Below are positions 2,306-11,770 of a stretch of DNA of 64,000 nucleotides, piece after piece; within the stretch, counting starts at the first letter, position 1; every line of letters begins with the position of its first letter. The stretch lies in assembly GCF_044324785.1 (NCBI RefSeq), contig NZ_CP172127.1; one strand, 5' to 3'. Made by a program: the position numbers and the translations under genes. This DNA comes from Escherichia coli. Its GTDB lineage: Bacteria; Pseudomonadota; Gammaproteobacteria; Enterobacterales; Enterobacteriaceae. Below the pieces are notes generated by a model. It searched no databases, was not told the origin of the DNA, and worked only from the letters and a program-made list of their open reading frames with translations.

Positions 2306-3376
2306 ATGGCAGGACTGAAATTACAGGCAGTAACCAAAAGCTGGGATGGCAAAACCCAGGTCATTAAACCGCTGACACTTGATGTGGCGGATGGCGAATT
2401 TATCGTGATGGTCGGGCCGTCTGGCTGCGGGAAATCGACGCTGCTGCGCATGGTTGCCGGGCTGGAGCGGGTGACGGAAGGCGATATCTGGATCAACGAC
2501 CAGCGGGTGACCGAAATGGAGCCGAAAGATCGCGGGATTGCGATGGTGTTCCAGAACTACGCTCTCTACCCACATATGAGCGTCGAAGAAAACATGGCGT
2601 GGGGGCTGAAAATTCGCGGCATGGGCAAGCAGCAAATTGCCGAACGTGTTAAAGAAGCGGCGCGCATTCTGGAGCTGGACGGCCTGCTTAAACGTCGCCC
2701 GCGCGAGCTATCTGGCGGTCAGCGTCAGCGTGTGGCGATGGGGCGTGCGATTGTGCGTGAGCCGGCAGTGTTCCTGTTTGATGAGCCGCTCTCTAACCTC
2801 GATGCCAAGCTGCGTGTGCAGATGCGCCTTGAACTGCAACAGCTGCACCGTCGCCTGAAAACGACTTCACTGTACGTTACTCACGATCAGGTTGAGGCGA
2901 TGACCCTCGCCCAGCGAGTGATGGTGATGAACGGCGGCGTTGCCGAACAGATTGGCACGCCAGTTGAAGTCTACGAAAAGCCCGCCAGCCTGTTTGTGGC
3001 GAGTTTTATTGGCAGTCCGGCGATGAACCTGCTGACAGGCCGCGTGAATAACGAAGGCACGCATTTCGAACTGGACGGCGGCATCGCGCTGCCGCTAAAC
3101 GGTGGCTACCGTCAGTATGCCGGGCGTAAAATGACCCTCGGCATTCGCCCGGAACATATAGCGCTAAGCTCGCAGGCAGAAGGTGGTGTGCCGCTGGTGA
3201 TGGACACGCTGGAGATCCTCGGTGCAGATAACCTGGCGCACGGACGCTGGGACGAACAGAAGCTGGTGGTGCGACTGGCGCATCAGGAGCGCCCGACGGC
3301 AGGCAGCACACTGTGGCTGCATCTGCCGGAAAATCAGCTGCATCTTTTTGATGGTGAAACAGGACAACGAGTATGA
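2306..3376 (+). CDS. ugpC: sn-glycerol-3-phosphate ABC transporter ATP-binding protein
   Basis: Walker [13 protein letters not shown] signature LSGGQRQR; start taken at MAGLK (ATG 2306) right after the ugpE stop, not the upstream in-frame ATG 2267. Confidence 0.9.
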
Positions 3377-4116
3377 GTAACTGGCCTTATCCCCGCATCG
3401 TCGCCCATCGTGGCGGCGGTAAACTGGCCCCGGAAAACACCCTGGCGGCAATCGACGTGGGGGCAAAATACGGTCATAAGATGATCGAATTTGACGCGAA
3501 GTTATCGAAAGATGGCGAGATCTTCCTGCTCCATGACGACAATCTCGAACGTACCAGCAACGGCTGGGGCGTCGCGGGTGAACTGAACTGGCAGGATTTA
3601 CTACGCGTGGATGCGGGCAGTTGGTACAGCAAAGCGTTTAAAGGTGAGCCGCTGCCGTTGCTTTCGCAGGTGGCGGAACGCTGTCGCGAACACGGGATGA
3701 TGGCGAATATCGAAATCAAACCCACCACTGGCACCGGGCCATTAACGGGCAAAACGGTGGCGCTGGCGGCACGCGAACTGTGGGCCGATATGACGCCGCC
3801 GCTGCTGTCATCGTTTGAGATTGATGCTTTAGAAGCTGCACAACAGGCGGCACCGGAACTGCCGCGCGGTTTATTGCTTGATGAGTGGCGCGACGACTGG
3901 CGAGAACTGACCGCGCGGCTGGGCTGCGTCTCTATTCATCTCAATCATAAGTTGCTCGATAAAGCGCGAGTGATGCAGTTGAAAGACGCCGGATTACGGA
4001 TTCTGGTTTATACCGTCAATAAACCCCAGCGCGCGGCAGAGTTGCTGCGCTGGGGCGTGGATTGCATCTGTACCGATGCGATTGACGTGATTGGTCCGAA
4101 CTTTACGGCCCAATAG
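3373..4116 (+). CDS. ugpQ: cytoplasmic glycerophosphodiester phosphodiesterase
   Basis: 247 aa, GP-PDE motif HRGG, overlaps ugpC stop. Confidence 0.9.
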
Positions 4117-4543
4117 TTTTCAACGGAATATCAGGCTGCGGCGTGCTGGGCTGATTCAGCATGTCGCCGTTTCTCCTCTCCGGCAGCATATGCTGCTGAT
4201 TCAACGAACTATCCGGATTACGGTTGCTGTTTAACATCCCGCCGTTGGTGTTGGGCAGCATTTGCTGCCGGGCGGGATTTCGCTCCCCCGGCTGTGACTG
4301 CAACACCCGCTGAGAATTATTGTTTATCTGGTTTTCTAAATGCTGTTGTTGCAACTGAGTTTGCGTTTTCAGTTGCTGATTCAGCATCCCTTTTTGCTGG
4401 ATTTGCTGCGTTTGCATTTGAGTCTGCATCCGCTGCTGGCTGGGGATCTGATATCCCGGCTGGTTGGGGTTGTTCAGAGTATTAATGGGCTGTGCAAAGC
4501 CGACAAACGGCAGGAGTGCCGTAAGAATCAGAAGTCGTTTCAT
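4103..4543 (-). CDS. yhhA: secreted Gln-rich protein of unknown function
   Basis: 146 aa, N-terminal signal peptide [19 protein letters not shown]-rich low-complexity body; convergent 14-nt overlap with ugpQ 3' end. Confidence 0.8.
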
Positions 4544-4662
4544 CGCGTATCCTCCTCTGAAGATATTCTTTAAGTTTACTCCTTTCCTGCAATCATCAGG
4601 ATTAATTCAGAGTTATATACCAGGCTTAGCTGGGGTTGCCCCTTAATCTCTGGAGAATAACG

Positions 4663-6408
4663 ATGATAAAACCGACGTTTTTACGCCGGGTGGCCATTGC
4701 TGCTCTGTTCACAGGAAGTTGTTTTAGTACGGTAGCCGCGCCACCTGCGCCGTCTCCTGTTTCTTACGGCGTGGAGGAAGATGTCTTTCATCCGGTACGC
4801 GCGAAACAGGGGATGGTGGCGTCTGTAGATGCTACTGCCACTCAGGTGGGGGTGGATATCCTCAAGGAGGGCGGGAATGCCGTTGATGCCGCCGTGGCGG
4901 TGGGCTACGCGCTGGCGGTAACGCATCCGCAGGCGGGGAATCTGGGCGGCGGTGGTTTTATGTTAATCCGCTCGAAAAATGGCAACACCACGGCGATTGA
5001 TTTCCGCGAAATGGCACCCGCCAAAGCGACCCGGGATATGTTCCTTGATGATCAGGGCAACCCGGACAGCAAAAAATCACTCACTTCGCATCTGGCCTCC
5101 GGCACGCCCGGTACGGTCGCTGGTTTCTCGCTGGCGTTGGATAAATACGGCACTATGCCGTTGAACAAAGTGGTGCAGCCAGCGTTTAAACTGGCACGCG
5201 ATGGTTTTATCGTTAACGACGCGCTGGCTGACGATCTCAAAACCTACGGGAGCGAAGTGCTGCCGAATCACGAAAATAGCAAAGCTATCTTCTGGAAAGA
5301 GGGCGAGCCGCTGAAAAAGGGCGACAAGCTGGTGCAGGCGAACCTGGCAAAGAGCCTGGAGATGATTGCCGAAAACGGCCCGGACGAATTCTACAAAGGC
5401 ACGATAGCGGAACAGATTGCCCAGGAGATGCAGAAAAACGGTGGCTTGATCACGAAAGAAGATTTAGCGGCGTATAAAGCGGTCGAACGTACACCGATTA
5501 GCGGCGATTATCGCGGGTATCAGGTTTACTCGATGCCACCGCCATCTTCCGGCGGGATCCATATCGTACAAATCCTCAATATTCTGGAAAACTTCGATAT
5601 GAAGAAATACGGCTTTGGCAGCGCCGACGCGATGCAAATCATGGCAGAAGCTGAGAAATACGCCTACGCCGACCGCTCGGAATATCTTGGCGACCCGGAT
5701 TTTGTCAAAGTCCCGTGGCAGGCGCTGACCAATAAAGCCTATGCCAAATCTATTGCCGATCAAATCGATATCAATAAAGCGAAGCCGTCCAGTGAGATTC
5801 GCCCTGGCAAGCTTGCGCCTTATGAGAGTAATCAAACTACCCATTACTCTGTAGTGGATAAAGACGGTAACGCGGTGGCGGTGACCTATACGCTGAATAC
5901 CACCTTCGGTACGGGCATTGTCGCGGGCGAGAGCGGTATTTTGCTCAATAACCAGATGGATGATTTCTCCGCCAAACCGGGCGTGCCGAACGTTTACGGG
6001 CTGGTGGGCGGTGATGCCAACGCCGTCGGGCCGAACAAACGTCCGCTGTCATCGATGTCACCAACCATTGTTGTGAAAGACGGTAAAACCTGGCTGGTGA
6101 CTGGTAGCCCTGGCGGTAGCCGGATTATCACCACCGTGCTGCAAATGGTAGTGAACAGCATCGATTATGGCATGAATGTCGCCGAAGCGACCAATGCACC
6201 GCGTTTCCACCATCAGTGGTTGCCGGACGAGCTGCGCGTCGAGAAAGGATTTAGCCCGGATACGCTCAAACTGCTGGAAGCAAAAGGTCAGAAAGTGGCG
6301 CTGAAAGAGGCGATGGGCAGCACACAAAGCATTATGGTTGGGCCGGACGGCGAGTTGTACGGCGCATCCGATCCGCGCTCGGTGGATGATTTAACGGCGG
6401 GGTATTAA
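4663..6408 (+). CDS. ggt: gamma-glutamyltranspeptidase
   Basis: 580 aa starting MIKPTFLRR, signal peptide, catalytic Thr region QTTHYSVVD; upstream in-frame ATG 4636 judged an ORF-track extension. Confidence 0.92.
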   Translation: MIKPTFLRRVAIAALFTGSCFSTVAAPPAPSPVSYGVEEDVFHPVRAKQGMVASVDATATQVGVDILKEGGNAVDAAVAVGYALAVTHPQAGNLGGGGFMLIRSKNGNTTAIDFREMAPAKATRDMFLDDQGNPDSKKSLTSHLASGTPGTVAGFSLALDKYGTMPLNKVVQPAFKLARDGFIVNDALADDLKTYGSEVLPNHENSKAIFWKEGEPLKKGDKLVQANLAKSLEMIAENGPDEFYKGTIAEQIAQEMQKNGGLITKEDLAAYKAVERTPISGDYRGYQVYSMPPPSSGGIHIVQILNILENFDMKKYGFGSADAMQIMAEAEKYAYADRSEYLGDPDFVKVPWQALTNKAYAKSIADQIDINKAKPSSEIRPGKLAPYESNQTTHYSVVDKDGNAVAVTYTLNTTFGTGIVAGESGILLNNQMDDFSAKPGVPNVYGLVGGDANAVGPNKRPLSSMSPTIVVKDGKTWLVTGSPGGSRIITTVLQMVVNSIDYGMNVAEATNAPRFHHQWLPDELRVEKGFSPDTLKLLEAKGQKVALKEAMGSTQSIMVGPDGELYGASDPRSVDDLTAGY

Positions 6409-6445
6409 GGTTAGCGGCTCTCTTCGTGGGAAGAGGGCCGTATTG

Positions 6446-6730
6446 TCAGGGCAAGCCGAAGGTAGCCTTTTTTATTTCATAATCCTGTAGATATTCTTCC
6501 AGCGGCTTTGCCGTTCCAAGGGAATGAATTTCACCACTGTCTTTATCAATAATAAAAGGTGCGTTACCGGCTAAACGCGCGGCCTCATCTCCAGATTCAA
6601 GAAATTCTTGTGATTCGAAACAGAAATACCAGCCCTGGCTAAAACGTCCATGCAGAGTGATGACGACAGGGAGATCTGCATCATCAAGGTAATGGTTCGC
6701 TTTCGCGAATGCGTCGTGATAAGTAATCAT
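6446..6730 (-). CDS. yrhB: small conserved protein (YrhB-like)
   Basis: 94 aa ORF at the position and size of K-12 yrhB. Confidence 0.7.
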   Translation of the reverse strand: MITYHDAFAKANHYLDDADLPVVITLHGRFSQGWYFCFESQEFLESGDEAARLAGNAPFIIDKDSGEIHSLGTAKPLEEYLQDYEIKKATFGLP

Positions 6731-7188
6731 AATTATAATAAATATTATTGTTGATCGTTATATTATTATTCTTGCGTTATACTTTGAGAAAAGACGCGTT
6801 CATCTTCGTCAAAGATATTATAAAATGCTGGTTTTGAAAAAAGTTCATCGGATAATATACAGTCACGAAATAAGTATCTGCTAATATTTTGTGATTTCTT
6901 TTTCAGAACGTCGAACGGGATTTTCTTATTTAAGATATCAGAATCTTATGATTCGGGTGAAATTCTAACTAAATCAACATGTCACTAAAATCATCATAGC
7001 CATTAGCTATTTCGGCTAAAATGGCTAAAATAGAGATTACATGTCTTCGGTCCATCTCACTTAAGGAGTGTAGTTCCGTTGTAAGTTTTTCCATAGCTTG
7101 CATTGCTAAGTTTCGAACAAGGAATTTTCTGCTGGTAATCTCTAAAAAGATGGCATGGTTTACAATGATTTTTGTTACCTTTTGATTA

Positions 7189-7683
7189 TTATGAACAACT
7201 GTCCATGATTTCGTTTAAGAATGAAGAGAAATCACTAAACGAACTGAATATATTTTCGGTGCCAATATTATCTCTAATTTCAAAAAAGTTACTTTTAATG
7301 TCATAAGTAAATATTGAAATGCTATCATCACCGATCACTAACCGTTCTTGTAGATCAGGGTTTATGAAATCATCATTATTTCTATAAAATTCATTTACGG
7401 CAAAAAGGTTTTTAACTGAAGGTTCTGGAATCGAGAGGCTAAATAATCGTAATCCATTAGCTTCGAATCCATCCATTGCTCTTAAAAAAGTAAGATAATC
7501 AGGTTGATTCTTAAAAAGAATACTAACTTCATTACATAACTTCTCCAGGCAATTAGTTGAATTAGAATTAAATTCTATTTGGATTATACTTTCAATAAAT
7601 GATTCCTTGAGCGGTGCTTCAAATGGATGGTCTAAATCATTCATCATTTTTTTTAATTTATTTATTTGGGTTTTAGTCATCAT
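7189..7683 (-). CDS. candidate immunity protein for the upstream Hcp-HNH effector (positional equivalent of yrhA)
   Basis: 164 aa acidic ORF, start ATGATGA-overlapped with yhhZ stop (translational coupling), AT-rich codon usage. Confidence 0.6.
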   Translation of the reverse strand: MMTKTQINKLKKMMNDLDHPFEAPLKESFIESIIQIEFNSNSTNCLEKLCNEVSILFKNQPDYLTFLRAMDGFEANGLRLFSLSIPEPSVKNLFAVNEFYRNNDDFINPDLQERLVIGDDSISIFTYDIKSNFFEIRDNIGTENIFSSFSDFSSFLNEIMDSCS

Positions 7684-8858
7684 TTTGTGGGTTCCATAAT
7701 ATTTTTCATGAGAGGATAAATTGAGCCAGATGGAATGGCCCAGGGAGTGATTTTGCTTTCACCTACTAATATTCCCTTAGCTATTCGTGATTGCATGTTA
7801 GTAAAAACTTTATGATATGGTTCGTTTTCGATTAATACTAAATTTTCGAAATCATTAGTACCACCATCATCTAGAGATAGTTTATGGTGAACATTATAAT
7901 TTAGAGGAACATTGCCCTTTCTCATTCTTAAAAGGTCTTCGGCGTTGAATCTTCCAGATGCTTCGGAGGTTTTTGCAAGTTTGATAAGAAAATTTTTTCT
8001 TACAGTTTTATTAAACTCCTTTCGTAAGTTAGCTAAGTCTTTTGAAGGTCTCTTAATGTATATTATTTCTATTATGTCTATACCATCAAGAAGTTTTTGT
8101 TGACCTCTAAGTTTGCCTAAGTAACTATTTATTTCTGTATATGTATCAACATTAGAACGCTTTGTTAAAAGAATAGATGCTGTTGCTATCGCTATGCCCG
8201 CTGTTTTTTCATTTAGTATTTGATCATAGCCTTTGATTGCATCTCCACCCAGTTTTTCCGCAGTATCTCTGAATCCTTCAATGTTCCCATTGTATACGCC
8301 ACCAGCAGCAAGTAGCCTGCCAACAGCTTCGCTGTTTAACGTTTTTAAACCATTATTTGTTTTGTTTTTTGAATTTGGTAAAAACAAGCGGTTATAATTT
8401 TCAGGGAGTGCCAAATAGCTGAACTCGGTGTTAGTGATAAGATGTTGGCAGAGGATAAATTCATAACTAACAGTTATTGTTTCTGTATCCAGCTGGTTTT
8501 CAATGATCTGGTGATGAATAGCCGATAAAAAAGCGCCTCTTAGTTGTATATAATAATACTTTTCCCATCTACCAAATCTATTTATTCGATAGAAGTCAAA
8601 TCCCATAAATAATTGTTCATTATTGTTAATGGAATTAATAAATAATGGAGTGCTTTTATCAATTAATTTACAAAATGTTATACCATGGAACTGTGAACCA
8701 AGCCCCGTATTAGAAATACTATTTAAGAGTGAGAATGTAAATATTTCATTCTCATGCCCGCTCTGCCAGCGATTACCTATAGATTCAGTAGTCCCACAAC
8801 CTGCGGAGATGCTTCCTTGTTGTTCTCCCGTTACTGTCAGATAAATAATATTACTCAT
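7680..8858 (-). CDS. yhhZ: Hcp-domain protein with C-terminal HNH nuclease extension (orphan T6SS Hcp-effector)
   Basis: 392 aa; N-terminal Hcp-like region; C-terminal NYNVHHKLSLDDGGTNDFENLVLIENEPYHKV HNH-type motif; very AT-rich. Confidence 0.8.
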   Translation of the reverse strand: MSNIIYLTVTGEQQGSISAGCGTTESIGNRWQSGHENEIFTFSLLNSISNTGLGSQFHGITFCKLIDKSTPLFINSINNNEQLFMGFDFYRINRFGRWEKYYYIQLRGAFLSAIHHQIIENQLDTETITVSYEFILCQHLITNTEFSYLALPENYNRLFLPNSKNKTNNGLKTLNSEAVGRLLAAGGVYNGNIEGFRDTAEKLGGDAIKGYDQILNEKTAGIAIATASILLTKRSNVDTYTEINSYLGKLRGQQKLLDGIDIIEIIYIKRPSKDLANLRKEFNKTVRKNFLIKLAKTSEASGRFNAEDLLRMRKGNVPLNYNVHHKLSLDDGGTNDFENLVLIENEPYHKVFTNMQSRIAKGILVGESKITPWAIPSGSIYPLMKNIMEPTK

Positions 8859-9061
8859 CCCTGAAAAGTCCTTTTATAGCATGCTATTTTATCAATGGCA
8901 CTATTATGCTTGTTAATTGTTATTTATTTACTCCAGGAAATTGTAGGCGTATATATTAAAAAATAAAATATTACACTTTAGGAAGTAATTATGAGGTAAA
9001 TCTCATATATTTATTGGGAAAATAAATACATTAAAGGAAGGTATGCCGATTTTGAATGACA

Positions 9062-9088
9062 CCCTTTTTCCATCTCAGAAAAAGGGCA
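9062..9088. terminator. bidirectional hairpin terminator between yhhZ promoter region and yhhY 3' end
   Basis: ccctttttc-loop-gaaaaaggg stem with flanking T/A runs. Confidence 0.5.
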
Positions 9089-9093
9089 CTATC

Positions 9094-9582
9094 TTACTTC
9101 ACCCGCGCCATATAATACGCATCGACATATTCACCATTACGTAATGCGTACTTTTTGCCAGTCCCTTCAATCTCAAAGCCGAATTTTTTATAGACCTTAA
9201 TTGCTGGCGCGTTATCGACGAACACCGTTAGTTCAATACGATCTACCCGCAACCAGTTATCGCACATTTCAATCATCTCTCGCATCAGGGCACTGGCGAC
9301 ACCGCGATTCTTCCAGCGGGCGTCGACACAGATACCAAAATCGGCAACATGACTGCGGCGCGGGCGTTGTTGCACGTCAATGGTGAGATGGCCTACGACG
9401 ATTCCATCAATACAGGCGACTAACTGCTTGATGCCGGGACGATCGGCGAGTCGCTCCTGCCACATATGATCGGAAGGATGAGGCACCTGTAGTGTGTTGC
9501 AATACACCTCCGGCTGGGCGTGAATCTGCCTGATGGCCTCGTAATCCCGTGTTTCTGCGTGGCGTATTACTATCTCACTCAT
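9094..9582 (-). CDS. yhhY: GNAT family N-acetyltransferase
   Basis: 162 aa from MSEIVIRHAETRDYEAIRQIH; acetyl-CoA binding RGVASALM motif; the longer ORF to 9660 would overlap the ryhB promoter. Confidence 0.85.
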   Translation of the reverse strand: MSEIVIRHAETRDYEAIRQIHAQPEVYCNTLQVPHPSDHMWQERLADRPGIKQLVACIDGIVVGHLTIDVQQRPRRSHVADFGICVDARWKNRGVASALMREMIEMCDNWLRVDRIELTVFVDNAPAIKVYKKFGFEIEGTGKKYALRNGEYVDAYYMARVK

Positions 9583-9680
9583 TCCTTTGTCCTCTTTGGG
9601 GTAAATGTCCCTTTCAACATCATTGACTTTCACATACGAGTCAAATGCATTTTTTTGCAAAAAGTGTTGGACAAGTGCGA

Positions 9681-9701
9681 ATGAGAATGATTATTATTGT
9701 C
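9681..9701 (+). promoter_or_regulatory. Fur box at ryhB promoter
   Basis: atgagaatgattattattgtc resembles GATAATGATAATCATTATC consensus immediately upstream of ryhB. Confidence 0.7.
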
Positions 9702-9703
9702 TC

Positions 9704-9797
9704 GCGATCAGGAAGACCCTCGCGGAGAACCTGAAAGCACGACATTGCTCACATTGCTTCCAGTATTACTTAGCCAGCCGGGTGCTGGCTTTTTTTT
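9704..9797 (+). ncRNA. ryhB: RyhB iron-responsive small RNA
   Basis: gcgatcaggaagaccctcgcggagaacctgaaagcacgacattgctcacattgcttccagtattacttagccagccgggtgctggcttttttttt matches RyhB as I recall it, with terminator hairpin plus T-run. Confidence 0.92.
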
Positions 9798-9914
9798 TGA
9801 TCTTTCGTTCTCAATTTATCCACGGGAGTGCTTGTGTTCGTTATGCGCACTCCAGTAGGAACCACGTCCGCTTTGCGCTAAGGTGTAAATAACCACCTTA
9901 AAAAGGACGAAATC

Positions 9915-10952
9915 ATGGTCATCAACTGCGCCTTTATTGGCTTCGGCAAAAGCACCACCCGTTACCATCTGCCGTATGTACTTAACCGCAAGGATAGCTG
10001 GCATGTCGCGCATATTTTTCGCCGCCATGCGAAGCCGGAAGAACAGGCCCCCATTTACTCTCATATCCATTTCACCAGCGATCTCGACGAAGTACTAAAC
10101 GATCCCGATGTTAAGCTGGTTGTGGTCTGCACCCATGCGGACAGCCATTTCGAGTACGCGAAACGCGCGCTGGAAGCCGGGAAAAATGTGCTGGTCGAAA
10201 AACCGTTCACTCCGACGCTTGCGCAGGCGAAAGAGCTGTTTGCTCTGGCGAAAAGTAAAGGGCTGACCGTCACGCCATATCAGAATCGTCGCTTTGATTC
10301 CTGCTTCCTGACAGCGAAAAAAGCGATTGAAAGCGGCAAGCTGGGAGAGATTGTCGAAGTGGAAAGCCATTTTGACTATTACCGCCCGGTGGCAGAAACC
10401 AAACCTGGACTGCCGCAGGATGGCGCGTTTTATGGCCTTGGTGTGCATACGATGGACCAGATTATTTCTCTGTTCGGTCGCCCGGATCACGTCGCTTATG
10501 ACATCCGCAGCCTGCGTAATAAAGCCAATCCTGACGACACCTTTGAAGCGCAGCTGTTTTATGGCGACCTGAAAGCCATCGTCAAAACCAGCCATCTGGT
10601 GAAAATCGATTATCCGAAATTTATCGTTCACGGTAAGAAAGGTTCGTTTATTAAATACGGTATCGACCAGCAGGAAACCAGCCTCAAGGCTAATATTATG
10701 CCGGGCGAACCGGGATTCGCGGCGGATGATTCGGTCGGTGTGCTGGAGTATGTCAATGACGAGGGCGTGACGGTCAGAGAAGAGATAAAGCCGGAGATGG
10801 GCGATTACGGGCGCGTTTATGATGCGTTGTATCAAACCATCACTAACGGTGCGCCAAATTACGTCAAGGAATCTGAAGTTCTTACCAATCTGGAAATCCT
10901 TGAACGAGGATTTGAGCAAGCCTCTCCCTCCACAGTGACTCTCGCGAAGTAA
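9915..10952 (+). CDS. yhhX: Gfo/Idh/MocA family NAD(P)-dependent oxidoreductase
   Basis: 345 aa, N-terminal Rossmann GFGKS, recognisable family. Confidence 0.85.
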   Translation: MVINCAFIGFGKSTTRYHLPYVLNRKDSWHVAHIFRRHAKPEEQAPIYSHIHFTSDLDEVLNDPDVKLVVVCTHADSHFEYAKRALEAGKNVLVEKPFTPTLAQAKELFALAKSKGLTVTPYQNRRFDSCFLTAKKAIESGKLGEIVEVESHFDYYRPVAETKPGLPQDGAFYGLGVHTMDQIISLFGRPDHVAYDIRSLRNKANPDDTFEAQLFYGDLKAIVKTSHLVKIDYPKFIVHGKKGSFIKYGIDQQETSLKANIMPGEPGFAADDSVGVLEYVNDEGVTVREEIKPEMGDYGRVYDALYQTITNGAPNYVKESEVLTNLEILERGFEQASPSTVTLAK

Positions 10953-11074
10953 GTTTGATGGCCCCTCGAATAGTTCAATTTTTTTGAACAGAGGGGTCAA
11001 TTTTCACCCTCTATCATCCCAGGCAGATCGGGTCCACACTAAGCCCATCGAAATCATTCAGGGGGCGAATACAA

Positions 11075-11770
11075 ATGATCTACTTACGCAAAGCAAATGA
11101 ACGTGGTCATGCAAATCATGGCTGGCTGGACTCCTGGCATACTTTCTCTTTTGCCAACTATTACGATCCGAACTTTATGGGCTTCTCCGCGCTGCGCGTG
11201 ATTAACGACGACGTGATTGAAGCAGGGCAGGGCTTCGGCACTCACCCGCATAAAGATATGGAAATTTTGACCTACGTGCTGGAAGGTACTGTTGAGCATC
11301 AGGACAGCATGGGCAATAAAGAGCAGGTTCCGGCGGGTGAGTTCCAGATTATGAGTGCGGGTACGGGTATTCGTCACTCAGAGTACAACCCAAGCAGCAC
11401 CGAGCGTCTGCATCTGTATCAAATCTGGATCATGCCGGAAGAAAACGGTATTACGCCGCGTTATGAACAGCGTCGCTTCGATGCCGTACAGGGCAAACAG
11501 CTGGTGCTCTCGCCGGATGCGCGAGATGGTTCGCTGAAAGTGCACCAGGATATGGAACTGTATCGTTGGGCATTGCTGAAAGATGAGCAGTCGGTGCATC
11601 AGATTGCCGCTGAACGCCGCGTCTGGATCCAGGTGGTGAAAGGCAATGTCACCATTAACGGCGTGAAAGCCTCGACCAGCGATGGTCTGGCAATCTGGGA
11701 TGAGCAGGCAATCTCCATTCATGCGGATAGCGACAGCGAAGTGTTACTGTTCGATCTGCCGCCGGTTTAA
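11075..11770 (+). CDS. yhhW: pirin-like cupin (quercetin 2,3-dioxygenase)
   Basis: 231 aa, cupin metal ligands HPHKDME, HSEYN. Confidence 0.85.
   Translation: MIYLRKANERGHANHGWLDSWHTFSFANYYDPNFMGFSALRVINDDVIEAGQGFGTHPHKDMEILTYVLEGTVEHQDSMGNKEQVPAGEFQIMSAGTGIRHSEYNPSSTERLHLYQIWIMPEENGITPRYEQRRFDAVQGKQLVLSPDARDGSLKVHQDMELYRWALLKDEQSVHQIAAERRVWIQVVKGNVTINGVKASTSDGLAIWDEQAISIHADSDSEVLLFDLPPV

What the first reader, a model, noticed from the sequence alone, without database searches (positions are those of the whole stretch)
6731..7188. 458-bp AT-rich non-coding gap between the immunity candidate and yrhB
No ORF of 60 aa or more exists here despite very low GC. Elsewhere such gaps downstream of effector-immunity pairs hold orphan immunity genes or degraded effector fragments. 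It may contain a short unannotated ORF or a remnant.
Basis: inference. Interest (0 to 1): 0.25.

Follow-up and report, generated by a model that had tools for sequence, protein, structure and literature searches.

The report
Decayed orphan immunity gene (yrhD relic)
The AT-rich "gap" is not empty: most of it is the worn-out remnant of a small anti-toxin (immunity) gene, known in E. coli K-12 as yrhD, left behind when the neighbouring secreted toxin swapped its toxic tip for a different one.

Summary
The coordinates and the lack of an ORF of 60 aa or more are correct. That lack is expected by chance in 31% GC DNA. The gap is also no more AT-rich than the rest of the yhhZ-yrhA-yrhB island.

The gap holds yrhD, a named K-12 gene of unknown function. 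An in-frame stretch on the minus strand (6930-7190), including 87 nt upstream of the annotated ATG, matches a family of ~83-aa four-helix proteins (HMM built without E. coli: 41.6 bits, E 3.6e-14, the only hit in the window). No Pfam or NCBIfam model covers this family.

In Serratia, Citrobacter, Lelliottia, Ralstonia and Paracoccus these genes overlap the end of one conserved toxin C-terminal domain. In Salmonella, at the same ggt-yhhX slot, an intact YhhZ-like Hcp carries that domain and is followed by an intact yrhD-like gene.

The E. coli copy has no start codon for helix 1, has changed near-invariant residues and shows pN/pS of about 1. In this window it also carries a TAG stop and a 9-bp duplication.

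So it is a decayed orphan immunity gene, displaced by the HNH-yrhA module. The remaining 199 bp before yrhB has no detectable homolog. This explains a y-gene, but it is an ordinary kind of relic.

The parts
6930..7190 (-). yrhD relic. This is the full stretch homologous to the ~83-aa YrhD-like immunity family, from just inside the yrhA stop codon to the K-12-type stop (TAA 6932-6930). No ATG, GTG or TTG start exists before 7103.
   Evidence: A family HMM built without E. coli sequences aligns to window 6990-7190 (HMM positions 4-68 of 83; 41.6 bits, E 3.6e-14; the only hit in the six-frame translation of the 64-kb window). BLASTP against P0016 gives 40% identity over 65 aa, including the residues upstream of the annotated Met. 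Identity to the syntenic Salmonella gene is 44%. The C-terminal tail aligns to the family end in K-12.
6969..7103 (-). Residual yrhD ORF in this window: 44 aa from the first ATG (7103). RefSeq in strain N3 annotates 41 aa from the second ATG (7094). It ends at a premature TAG (6971-6969), where K-12 has TAT.
   Evidence: K-12 has a 51-aa yrhD. The TAG is shared with JCH767-type alleles. ST95-32 has an independent TAA and has lost both ATGs.
7014..7031 (.). 9-bp tandem duplication (GGCTAAAAT x2) that inserts three codons (ILA) in the relic's third helix.
   Evidence: Only 1 of 3,804 matching complete genomes (strain N3) shares it.
6731..6929 (.). 199-bp spacer between the relic and yrhB with no recognisable homolog. 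It includes a 59-codon stop-free stretch without a start codon (6769-6945, minus) and weak sigma-70-like sites just upstream of yrhB.
   Evidence: No hit in a full HMMER search of 1.84 billion proteins other than one 34-aa fragment at 88% identity, apparently a gene call from the same E. coli region. No hit by tblastn against plasmids, by tblastn with the glutamine-deamidase and DRK toxins, or by tblastx/blastn against 17 related loci. Pfam found nothing and Rfam found nothing. Promoter-like sites are at 6790-6762 and 6754-6726, no more than expected by chance.
6446..6730 (-). yrhB, an Imm35-family orphan immunity gene (flank).
   Evidence: Pfam Imm35, E 1.2e-22. Homologs in P. aeruginosa and Salmonella directly follow a glutamine-deamidase (PF15644) toxin fragment. 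pN/pS is 0.19.
7189..7683 (-). yrhA, the candidate immunity gene for YhhZ-HNH (flank). Its last codons overlap the open frame of the relic.
   Evidence: NCBIfam YrhA family, E 1e-36. pN/pS is 0.20. Rare E. coli variants fuse yrhA to the yrhD frame by a 1-nt change.
7680..8858 (-). yhhZ (tssD), an Hcp fused to an HNH nuclease domain. It is the effector whose C-terminal module was exchanged.
   Evidence: Pfam T6SS_HCP plus a weak HNH match, and NCBIfam Hcp1. It is collinear and ~75% identical to the Salmonella Hcp-toxin over aa 1-234, then unrelated.
7247..7276 (-). Sigma-70-like promoter TAGAGA-18-TATATT inside the yrhA 3' end, reading towards yrhD and yrhB.
   Evidence: Consensus scan. The identical hexamers are reported as a genomic-SELEX RpoD site with H-NS upstream of yrhD in K-12 (PMC3946193).

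Best explanation
The gap is mostly a pseudogenised orphan immunity gene. The ggt-yhhX slot holds a polymorphic Hcp-toxin locus. In one state, still intact in Salmonella, a YhhZ-like Hcp carries a ~115-aa C-terminal toxin domain with the motif FDGVDGxVMxDRK. This domain is called the 'DRK' domain below. It is followed, with overlapping stop and start codons, by an ~84-aa four-helix acidic protein that is inferred to bind and neutralise that domain.

In the E. coli lineage, the toxin tip and its immunity gene were replaced or overlaid by an HNH-nuclease tip plus yrhA. The old immunity gene (yrhD) was left stranded downstream, next to a second orphan immunity gene, yrhB (Imm35).

No cognate toxin was detectable in E. 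coli at the DNA level. The stranded gene has lost its start codon and first helix, has changed near-invariant residues and now drifts neutrally. Alleles carry independent nonsense mutations. This window's allele has a TAG stop and a 9-bp duplication.

What is shown: the homology, the synteny, the toxin-immunity adjacency in other genomes, and the signs of decay. What is inferred: the direction of the module swap, the toxin-neutralising function of intact family members, and the present lack of function. The last 199 bp before yrhB is unassigned. It probably serves only as spacer or promoter DNA for yrhB.
For: (1) Homology. phmmer of the conceptual translation against 1.84 billion proteins found P0016 (E 1.7e-4), and the alignment covers residues upstream of the annotated ATG. 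A profile search then found 172 proteins of ~80-86 aa. An HMM built without E. coli sequences hits the window once, at 6990-7190 minus, with E 3.6e-14.

(2) Immunity position. The family gene overlaps the 3' end of the same toxin C-terminal domain in Serratia (a 442-aa PT-VENN CdiA-CT), Citrobacter, Lelliottia, Ralstonia and Paracoccus. It also sits in CdiA immunity arrays beside Imm63, SUKH and DUF2247 genes.

(3) Synteny. Salmonella L032 has an intact 373-aa Hcp-toxin. Its aa 1-234 are 75% identical to YhhZ, and its C-terminal domain is 84% identical to the Citrobacter CdiA-CT. It overlaps an intact 84-aa yrhD-like gene between yhhX and ggt. L033 has yrhD-like, then a Gln_amidase fragment, then Imm35, in the same order as E. 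coli yrhD and yrhB.

(4) Decay. No start codon precedes helix 1. The near-invariant residues F22, D31, F59 and G82 are changed. pN/pS is 1.02, against 0.19 for yrhB and 0.20 for yrhA. Independent stops, loss of start codons and an indel occur among alleles. RefSeq flags pseudogenes in roughly a quarter of the sampled genomes.

(5) No DRK toxin or intact immunity gene was detectable in 5,426 complete E. coli genomes at the DNA level.

(6) The AF2 model of an intact member is a confident four-helix bundle (pLDDT 88.9). The K-12 51-aa ORF would lack helix 1 and part of helix 2. The window ORF also lacks helix 4.
Against: The immunity function of the family is inferred from gene position only. No curated family, solved structure or experiment supports it. 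Only one database record calls a member 'MafI family immunity protein', and no NCBIfam model matches it.

The toxin domain's activity is unknown. Its AF2 model is poor (pLDDT 59) and the fold search was uninformative.

Three of twelve family contexts show no nearby toxin.

The pN/pS estimate rests on four alleles, and wrong frames gave values from 0.4 to 2.5.

The K-12-type 51-codon ORF is intact in about three quarters of genomes carrying the locus and has a SELEX RpoD site upstream, so a residual role is not excluded.

The direction of the module exchange (yrhD older than HNH-yrhA in E. coli) is not demonstrated.
Confidence: 0.85

Rival explanations
1. yrhD is a genuine, functional small-protein gene of E. 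coli (51 aa in K-12). Its function would be new and unrelated to, or a miniaturised version of, the ancestral immunity role. The window allele would be just a strain-specific knock-out.
For: The ORF is intact and near-identical in most genomes with the locus (68 identical copies are reported in PMC3575317). A sigma-70 SELEX site lies upstream. RefSeq and UniProt keep it as a gene.
Against: pN/pS is about 1. At least two independent nonsense alleles, a start-codon-loss allele and an in-frame duplication exist. No Shine-Dalgarno-like sequence precedes either ATG (sequence). Homology continues 87 nt upstream of the ATG in frame, which is what a truncated relic looks like. The ORF lacks helix 1 of a four-helix bundle. 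The high identity among copies reflects recent common ancestry of a few haplotypes, not constraint.
Confidence: 0.08
2. The gap is simply intergenic regulatory DNA: the promoter or leader of yrhB in an H-NS-silenced, horizontally acquired island, with no gene remnant of significance.
For: The 199-bp spacer next to yrhB has no homolog. Weak promoter-like hexamers lie just upstream of yrhB. H-NS is noted at this site in K-12. In strain PK5086, yrhB persists with only ~13 bp of the gap.
Against: 261 of the 458 bp are demonstrably homologous to a protein family in one frame (E 3.6e-14). Promoter-like sites are no more frequent than in shuffled sequence (11 found against 11.7 expected).
Confidence: 0.05
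3. The gap holds a degraded effector fragment, namely the glutamine-deamidase toxin that is cognate to YrhB/Imm35.
For: In Salmonella L033 and P. aeruginosa L022, a Gln_amidase fragment sits exactly between the preceding gene and Imm35, overlapping its start. E. coli has a 59-codon stop-free stretch at the corresponding position, ending 35 nt before yrhB.
Against: tblastn with both deamidase sequences finds nothing in the gap at E up to 10-100. Pfam shows no match for that frame. An open stretch of that length is not unusual across six frames of AT-rich DNA (own estimate). Its pN/pS of 0.5 is within the noise of wrong frames.
Confidence: 0.04

Closest known systems
yrhD of E. coli K-12 (b4612, UniProt P58037), an uncharacterised 51-aa protein
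   Same: It is the same locus and sequence: 94% nucleotide identity over the gap, between yrhA and yrhB.
   Different: The window allele is shorter (41-44 aa) because of a TAT-to-TAG change, and it carries a 9-bp duplication. None of the 17 papers that mention 'yrhD' was seen to assign the E. coli gene a function (four were checked directly). The immunity-relic reading is new here.
Orphan immunity genes in T6SS effector clusters (Kirchberger et al. 2017 in Vibrio cholerae; noted for E. coli Hcp-ET loci by Ma et al. 2017, as summarised in PMC6730261)
   Same: It is homologous to an immunity gene that elsewhere follows its effector. Here it lies downstream of a different effector-immunity pair in the same cluster. 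The model of successive module replacement that retains the old immunity gene fits.
   Different: This copy is not retained intact. It has no start codon, has diverged at conserved sites and shows neutral substitution. It is a relic rather than a working orphan.
cdiA-CT/cdiI orphan modules of contact-dependent inhibition loci (from general knowledge of CDI systems)
   Same: Intact family members occupy the cdiI position, overlapping the end of PT-VENN CdiA-CT toxins in Serratia, Citrobacter and Lelliottia.
   Different: In E. coli and Salmonella the module rides on an Hcp (T6SS) carrier, not on CdiA. No Pfam CdiI family matches.
MafI immunity proteins of Neisseria MafB toxins
   Same: One family member (Lelliottia WP_420171538.1) is named 'MafI family immunity protein' by NCBI. 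Both are small proteins encoded next to a polymorphic toxin.
   Different: No NCBIfam or Pfam model matches any of 32 members. The label is unsupported by any test run here.
YrhB / Imm35 (PF15567)
   Same: It is the neighbouring orphan immunity gene in the same array. It likewise lacks its cognate toxin in E. coli.
   Different: YrhB is intact and under purifying selection (pN/pS 0.19), whereas yrhD is not. The two sequence families are unrelated.

Membership tests
E. coli yrhD locus | Orthologous sequence between yrhA and yrhB | tested here: met
   90-100% nucleotide identity to the yrhD region of 3,804 E. coli genomes; annotated as yrhD in K-12.
E. coli yrhD locus | Intact 51-codon ORF as in K-12 | tested here: not met
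   Premature TAG at 6971-6969 and a 9-bp duplication at 7014-7031. The ORF is 41-44 aa.
YrhD-like ~83-aa four-helix family (uncurated; defined here, alignment A4) | Significant profile match over most of the domain | tested here: met
   HMM built without E. coli sequences: 41.6 bits, E 3.6e-14, HMM positions 4-68 of 83, window 6990-7190 minus.
YrhD-like ~83-aa four-helix family (uncurated; defined here, alignment A4) | Complete ORF of 79-86 aa with a start codon before helix 1 | tested here: not met
   No ATG, GTG or TTG lies between the upstream stop (7217-7215) and 7103. The frame overlaps the yrhA stop.
YrhD-like ~83-aa four-helix family (uncurated; defined here, alignment A4) | Near-invariant residues (F22, D31, A33, F59, L77, G82 in P0017 numbering) | tested here: not met
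   E. coli has I, N, L and a non-matching tail at F22, D31, F59 and G82. L20, E21, E38, L44 and Y66 are kept.
Immunity protein of a polymorphic toxin system | Gene immediately downstream of, or overlapping, a toxin C-terminal domain, with the pairing conserved across lineages | tested here: met
   This holds for the family: five lineages plus Salmonella Hcp-toxin pair it with the same C-terminal domain, with overlaps of 8-17 nt where the two ORFs overlap. It does not hold for the E. coli copy itself, which follows yrhA.
Immunity protein of a polymorphic toxin system | Binds and neutralises the cognate toxin | not testable with these tools
   Needs co-expression rescue and binding assays. Only single-chain structure prediction was available.
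Orphan immunity gene | Homolog of an immunity gene, located in an effector cluster but not after its cognate effector | tested here: met
   It lies after yhhZ(HNH)-yrhA. The cognate DRK toxin is absent from the window (one search found only the immunity hit) and from 5,426 E. coli genomes at the DNA level.
MafI family (NCBI label on one member) | Match to a curated MafI model | tested here: not met
   No NCBIfam or Pfam hit for 32 members at E up to 1.
Degraded effector fragment (Gln_amidase PF15644, cognate of Imm35) | Detectable similarity of any frame of the gap to the toxin | tested here: not met
   tblastn with the P. aeruginosa and Salmonella fragments, and Pfam on the open frame, found nothing.
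Known RNA family (Rfam 15) | Covariance-model match in the gap | tested here: not met
   There is no match within 6731-7188. The only hit at E up to 1 is a chance snoRNA match inside yrhA.

The most novel reading that the evidence does not exclude
The intact relatives of yrhD and the ~115-aa 'FDGVDGxVMxDRK' C-terminal domain they follow form an undescribed toxin-immunity family. The family is shuttled between two delivery platforms: CdiA (type V) in Serratia, Citrobacter, Lelliottia and Ralstonia, and Hcp (type VI) in Salmonella. E. coli K-12's y-gene yrhD is then the fossil of a past exchange at the yhhZ locus. A weaker add-on is that the 51-aa K-12 form retains some residual activity.
Probability: 0.6. 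Interest if true: 0.45.

Novelty: new member of a known kind. Interest (0 to 1): 0.3.

Why it matters
It gives an evolutionary identity to yrhD, one of the uncharacterised "y-genes" of E. coli K-12. The gene is best treated as a pseudogene of an immunity protein, not as a small protein of unknown function. It shows that the yhhZ-yrhA-yrhD-yrhB island is one Hcp effector followed by a stack of one current and two orphan immunity cassettes. It also points to an uncurated toxin/immunity pair, with no Pfam or NCBIfam model, that is shared between CDI and T6SS carriers and could be tested directly. For the genome scan itself, the finding is ordinary: a decayed cassette of a well-known kind.

Tried and rejected
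- **Pfam and NCBIfam** on the ORFs and frame fragments of the gap gave only noise.
- **Word-indexed protein search** with the stitched translation and with P0016 returned only E. coli variants or the query itself.
- **Genome-contig scan** with a 3-sequence alignment was largely wasted. Its patterns were too narrow, and the single hit was an E. coli-like contig in a MAG.
- **Stitched frameshifted gene.** I tested whether the yrhD frame and the downstream 59-codon open frame were one gene. The family ends where K-12 yrhD ends, and the downstream frame has no homolog, so I rejected this.
- **Relic toxins in the gap.** I searched for the glutamine-deamidase toxin and the DRK toxin and found nothing.
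- **Rfam** found nothing in the gap.
- **Promoter and terminator scan** gave counts at chance level.
- **Structure-based annotation.** The immunity-family model is confident, but Foldseek against PDB returned only generic helical bundles. The toxin model was poor and its fold search meaningless. PDB sequence searches found nothing.
- **Ancestral start codon.** The idea that the ATG at 7206-7204 is the ancestral start, displaced by a 1-nt shift, remains speculation. Salmonella's start aligns one codon downstream of it.
- **dN/dS in Salmonella** was not possible because there was too little divergence.

Full report
**Observation**

The window around the finding is the E. coli ugpC-ugpQ-yhhA-ggt / yrhB / gap / yrhA / yhhZ / yhhY / yhhX region. 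The gap is exactly 6731-7188 (458 bp), bounded by the yrhB start codon and the yrhA stop codon. It has no complete ORF of 60 aa or more; the longest are 54 aa on the plus strand and 44 aa on the minus strand. GC is 0.31.

In shuffles of the gap, 89.5% also lack an ORF of 60 aa or more, so the absence is expected. The low GC is a property of the whole island (yrhA 0.29, yhhZ 0.34), not of the gap.

The gap sequence is present in 3,804 of 5,426 complete E. coli genomes at 90-100% identity. The window is closest to strain N3. It is identical to N3 from 6271 to 7628, but differs at 87 positions plus one indel over the 8.5 kb compared, so it is not that exact record.

**What is annotated there**

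In K-12 the gap contains yrhD, a 51-aa protein of unknown function. In N3 the same place is annotated as a 41-aa hypothetical protein, equivalent to window 6969-7094 minus.

An alignment of four haplotypes shows the differences:
- The window/N3 allele has a 9-bp tandem duplication (7014-7031) and a TAT-to-TAG change (6971-6969). JCH767-type alleles share the TAG.
- ST95-32 has an independent TAA and has lost both ATG codons.
- K-12 is 'intact'.

RefSeq flags the gene as a pseudogene or leaves it unnamed in about 7 of 29 evenly sampled genomes.

**Homology**

Reading the minus strand in the yrhD frame, the frame stays open upstream of the annotated ATG, right up to and over the yrhA stop codon, but it has no start codon.

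A full HMMER search of the conceptual translation against 1.84 billion proteins gave one distant hit, P0016 (79 aa, E 1.7e-4). Its alignment (40% identity over 65 aa) includes about 25 residues encoded upstream of the annotated Met.

tblastn of P0016 against plasmids found intact 80-84-aa homologs in Rahnella, Ralstonia and Pantoea. A profile search then found 172 proteins of ~80-86 aa in Enterobacterales, Ralstonia and Xanthomonas.

An HMM built from 31 members, without any E. coli sequence, hits the six-frame translation of the whole 64-kb window exactly once: window 6990-7190 minus, 41.6 bits, E 3.6e-14, HMM positions 4-68 of 83. In K-12 the C-terminal tail also aligns to the family's natural end. 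The homologous unit is therefore window 6930-7190.

No Pfam, NCBIfam or PDB sequence relative exists for this family. AlphaFold2 gives a confident four-helix bundle (pLDDT 88.9) with no informative structural neighbour.

**What the family does (inferred from context)**

In five lineages the family gene overlaps, or sits just after, the end of one conserved ~115-aa C-terminal domain with the motif FDGVDGxVMxDRK (the 'DRK' domain):

| Lineage | Locus | Toxin-domain carrier |
|---|---|---|
| Serratia | L024 | 442-aa orphan CdiA-CT with PT-VENN |
| Citrobacter | L026/L027 | 207-aa CT protein |
| Lelliottia | L017 | 103-aa CT fragment |
| Ralstonia | L014 | 116-aa CT protein |
| Paracoccus | L020 | 104-aa protein |

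Elsewhere the gene lies in CdiA-locus immunity arrays next to Imm63, SUKH/SMI1_KNR4, DUF6911 or DUF2247 genes. Nine of twelve contexts examined are two-partner-secretion (TPS)/CdiA loci.

This is the classic position of an immunity gene. The toxin's activity is unknown. It has no Pfam or PDB match, its model is poor (pLDDT 59), and the D...DRK motif is only a hint of a PD-(D/E)xK nuclease.

**The syntenic Salmonella locus**

Salmonella enterica carries an intact 84-aa family member in the same chromosomal slot, between yhhX and ggt.

In CP034702.1 (L032), an intact 373-aa ORF (6896-8017) starts as a YhhZ-like Hcp (75% identical over aa 1-234). It then switches to the DRK domain (84% identical to the Citrobacter CdiA-CT) and overlaps the yrhD-like gene (8001-8255) by 17 nt. 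The alignment with E. coli YhhZ is collinear up to '...AASIL' and unrelated afterwards, where E. coli has the HNH domain.

In another Salmonella (L033), the order is: yrhD-like, then a glutamine-deamidase fragment (PF15644), then an Imm35 gene 71% identical to YrhB, then further Hcp fragments, then ggt.

E. coli keeps the same order, yrhD then yrhB, at the same place. The yrhD region is 44% identical at protein level and 66% identical over 113 nt at DNA level to the Salmonella gene.

**Decay in E. coli**

- The E. coli frame has no start codon for helix 1.
- It has substitutions at near-invariant positions F22, D31, F59 and G82.
- pN/pS is 1.02 among four haplotypes, against 0.19 for yrhB, 0.20 for yrhA and 0.50 for yhhZ. 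Wrong frames scatter between 0.4 and 2.5, so this is indicative rather than decisive.
- The annotated 51-aa K-12 ORF would encode only part of helix 2 plus helices 3-4. The window ORF lacks helix 4 as well and has three extra residues in helix 3.
- Neither the DRK toxin nor an intact immunity gene is detectable at the DNA level in 5,426 complete E. coli genomes.

**The rest of the gap**

The 199 bp between the relic's K-12-type stop (6930) and yrhB (6730) contains a 59-codon stop-free stretch without a start codon (6769-6945 minus). It has no homolog in any search, apart from one 34-aa E. coli-like fragment (P0015, 88% identity) in the HMMER search.

In Salmonella and P. aeruginosa the position just upstream of Imm35 holds a glutamine-deamidase toxin fragment. 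No trace of it is detectable in E. coli. I leave this stretch unassigned. It is most simply spacer or promoter DNA for yrhB.

A sigma-70-like site, TAGAGA-18-TATATT, at 7276-7247 within the yrhA 3' end matches a genomic-SELEX RpoD site reported upstream of yrhD in K-12 with H-NS. No Rfam family matches the gap.

**Interpretation**

The island is one Hcp effector (YhhZ-HNH) followed by its likely immunity gene (yrhA) and two orphan immunity cassettes. One is decayed (yrhD). The other is intact (yrhB/Imm35).

The simplest history is a C-terminal toxin/immunity module exchange at a polymorphic Hcp-toxin locus, which stranded the earlier immunity gene. This matches the model for orphan immunity genes summarised in PMC6730261. 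The direction of the exchange and the neutralising function of intact family members are inferences.

The slot itself is highly variable in E. coli:
- empty (strain E2)
- yrhB only (PK5086)
- a DUF4225 gene (O157:H7)
- IS1 or IS3 insertions (K-12, M11)
- an IS1-associated deletion (AR_0369)

**Verdict**

However, the ORF is already annotated as yrhD, and it is a relic of an ordinary kind.

The modest new content has two parts. One is the identification of yrhD as a decayed member of an uncurated immunity family. The other is the recognition of its cognate toxin domain, which is shared between CdiA and Hcp carriers.

Noticed in passing
window 2700-11250 compared with L001 (strain N3): The window is not strain N3 itself. 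There are 87 mismatches and one indel over 8.5 kb. They cluster in the ggt 3' half (5553-6270, about 5% divergence) and in yhhY/yhhX, while 6271-7628 is identical. This looks like a recombination mosaic around the island.
   Followed up: partly
window 4103-4543 (yhhA): yhhA is an intact 146-aa ORF in the window. RefSeq marks it as frameshifted in N3, where there is a 1-nt deletion at the position equivalent to window 4285.
   Followed up: partly
L032 6896-8017 (Salmonella enterica CP034702.1): An intact 373-aa Hcp fused to an uncharacterised C-terminal toxin domain (motif FDGVDGxVMxDRK) was not listed among the called genes for this locus. The same domain ends CdiA-CT proteins in Serratia and Citrobacter, so one toxin tip is used by both T6SS and CDI carriers. 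It has no Pfam family.
   Followed up: partly
L033 8256-10816 (Salmonella): This is a stack of orphan modules next to ggt: a Gln_amidase fragment plus Imm35, an Hcp fragment (YhhZ aa 68-229), then two 89-aa ORFs (a possible further toxin-tip/immunity pair).
   Followed up: no
ggt-yhhY slot in other E. coli (L005-L008): The insertion slot is polymorphic. It is empty in strain E2, holds yrhB only in PK5086, and holds a DUF4225 gene in O157:H7. AR_0369 has an IS1-mediated deletion that removes yhhZ, yrhA and most of the gap.
   Followed up: partly
P0004 (JGI metagenome, 227 aa); P0007 and P0011 (E. coli variants): In some sequences the yrhD frame is fused to something else. P0007 and P0011 are yrhA-yrhD read-through fusions caused by small changes at the yrhA stop. 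P0004 joins an unrelated N-terminus (MEYKGYSGTIHQDNDGHYHGR..., not further analysed) to the yrhD frame, which may be a different context or a chimeric assembly.
   Followed up: no
L011 1662-1961 (Rahnella plasmid CP042359.1): PLSDB's resistance-gene prediction labels a small ORF at the end of a CdiA gene as 'OXA-678 beta-lactamase, 100% identity'. This is implausible for a 300-bp stretch in a CDI locus and is probably an annotation artefact.
   Followed up: no
L010 (MAG labelled Flavihumibacter, contig CABHOW010000200.1): A 4-kb contig in a Flavihumibacter MAG encodes a 100% identical K-12-type yrhD frame. This is almost certainly E. coli contamination of the bin.
   Followed up: no
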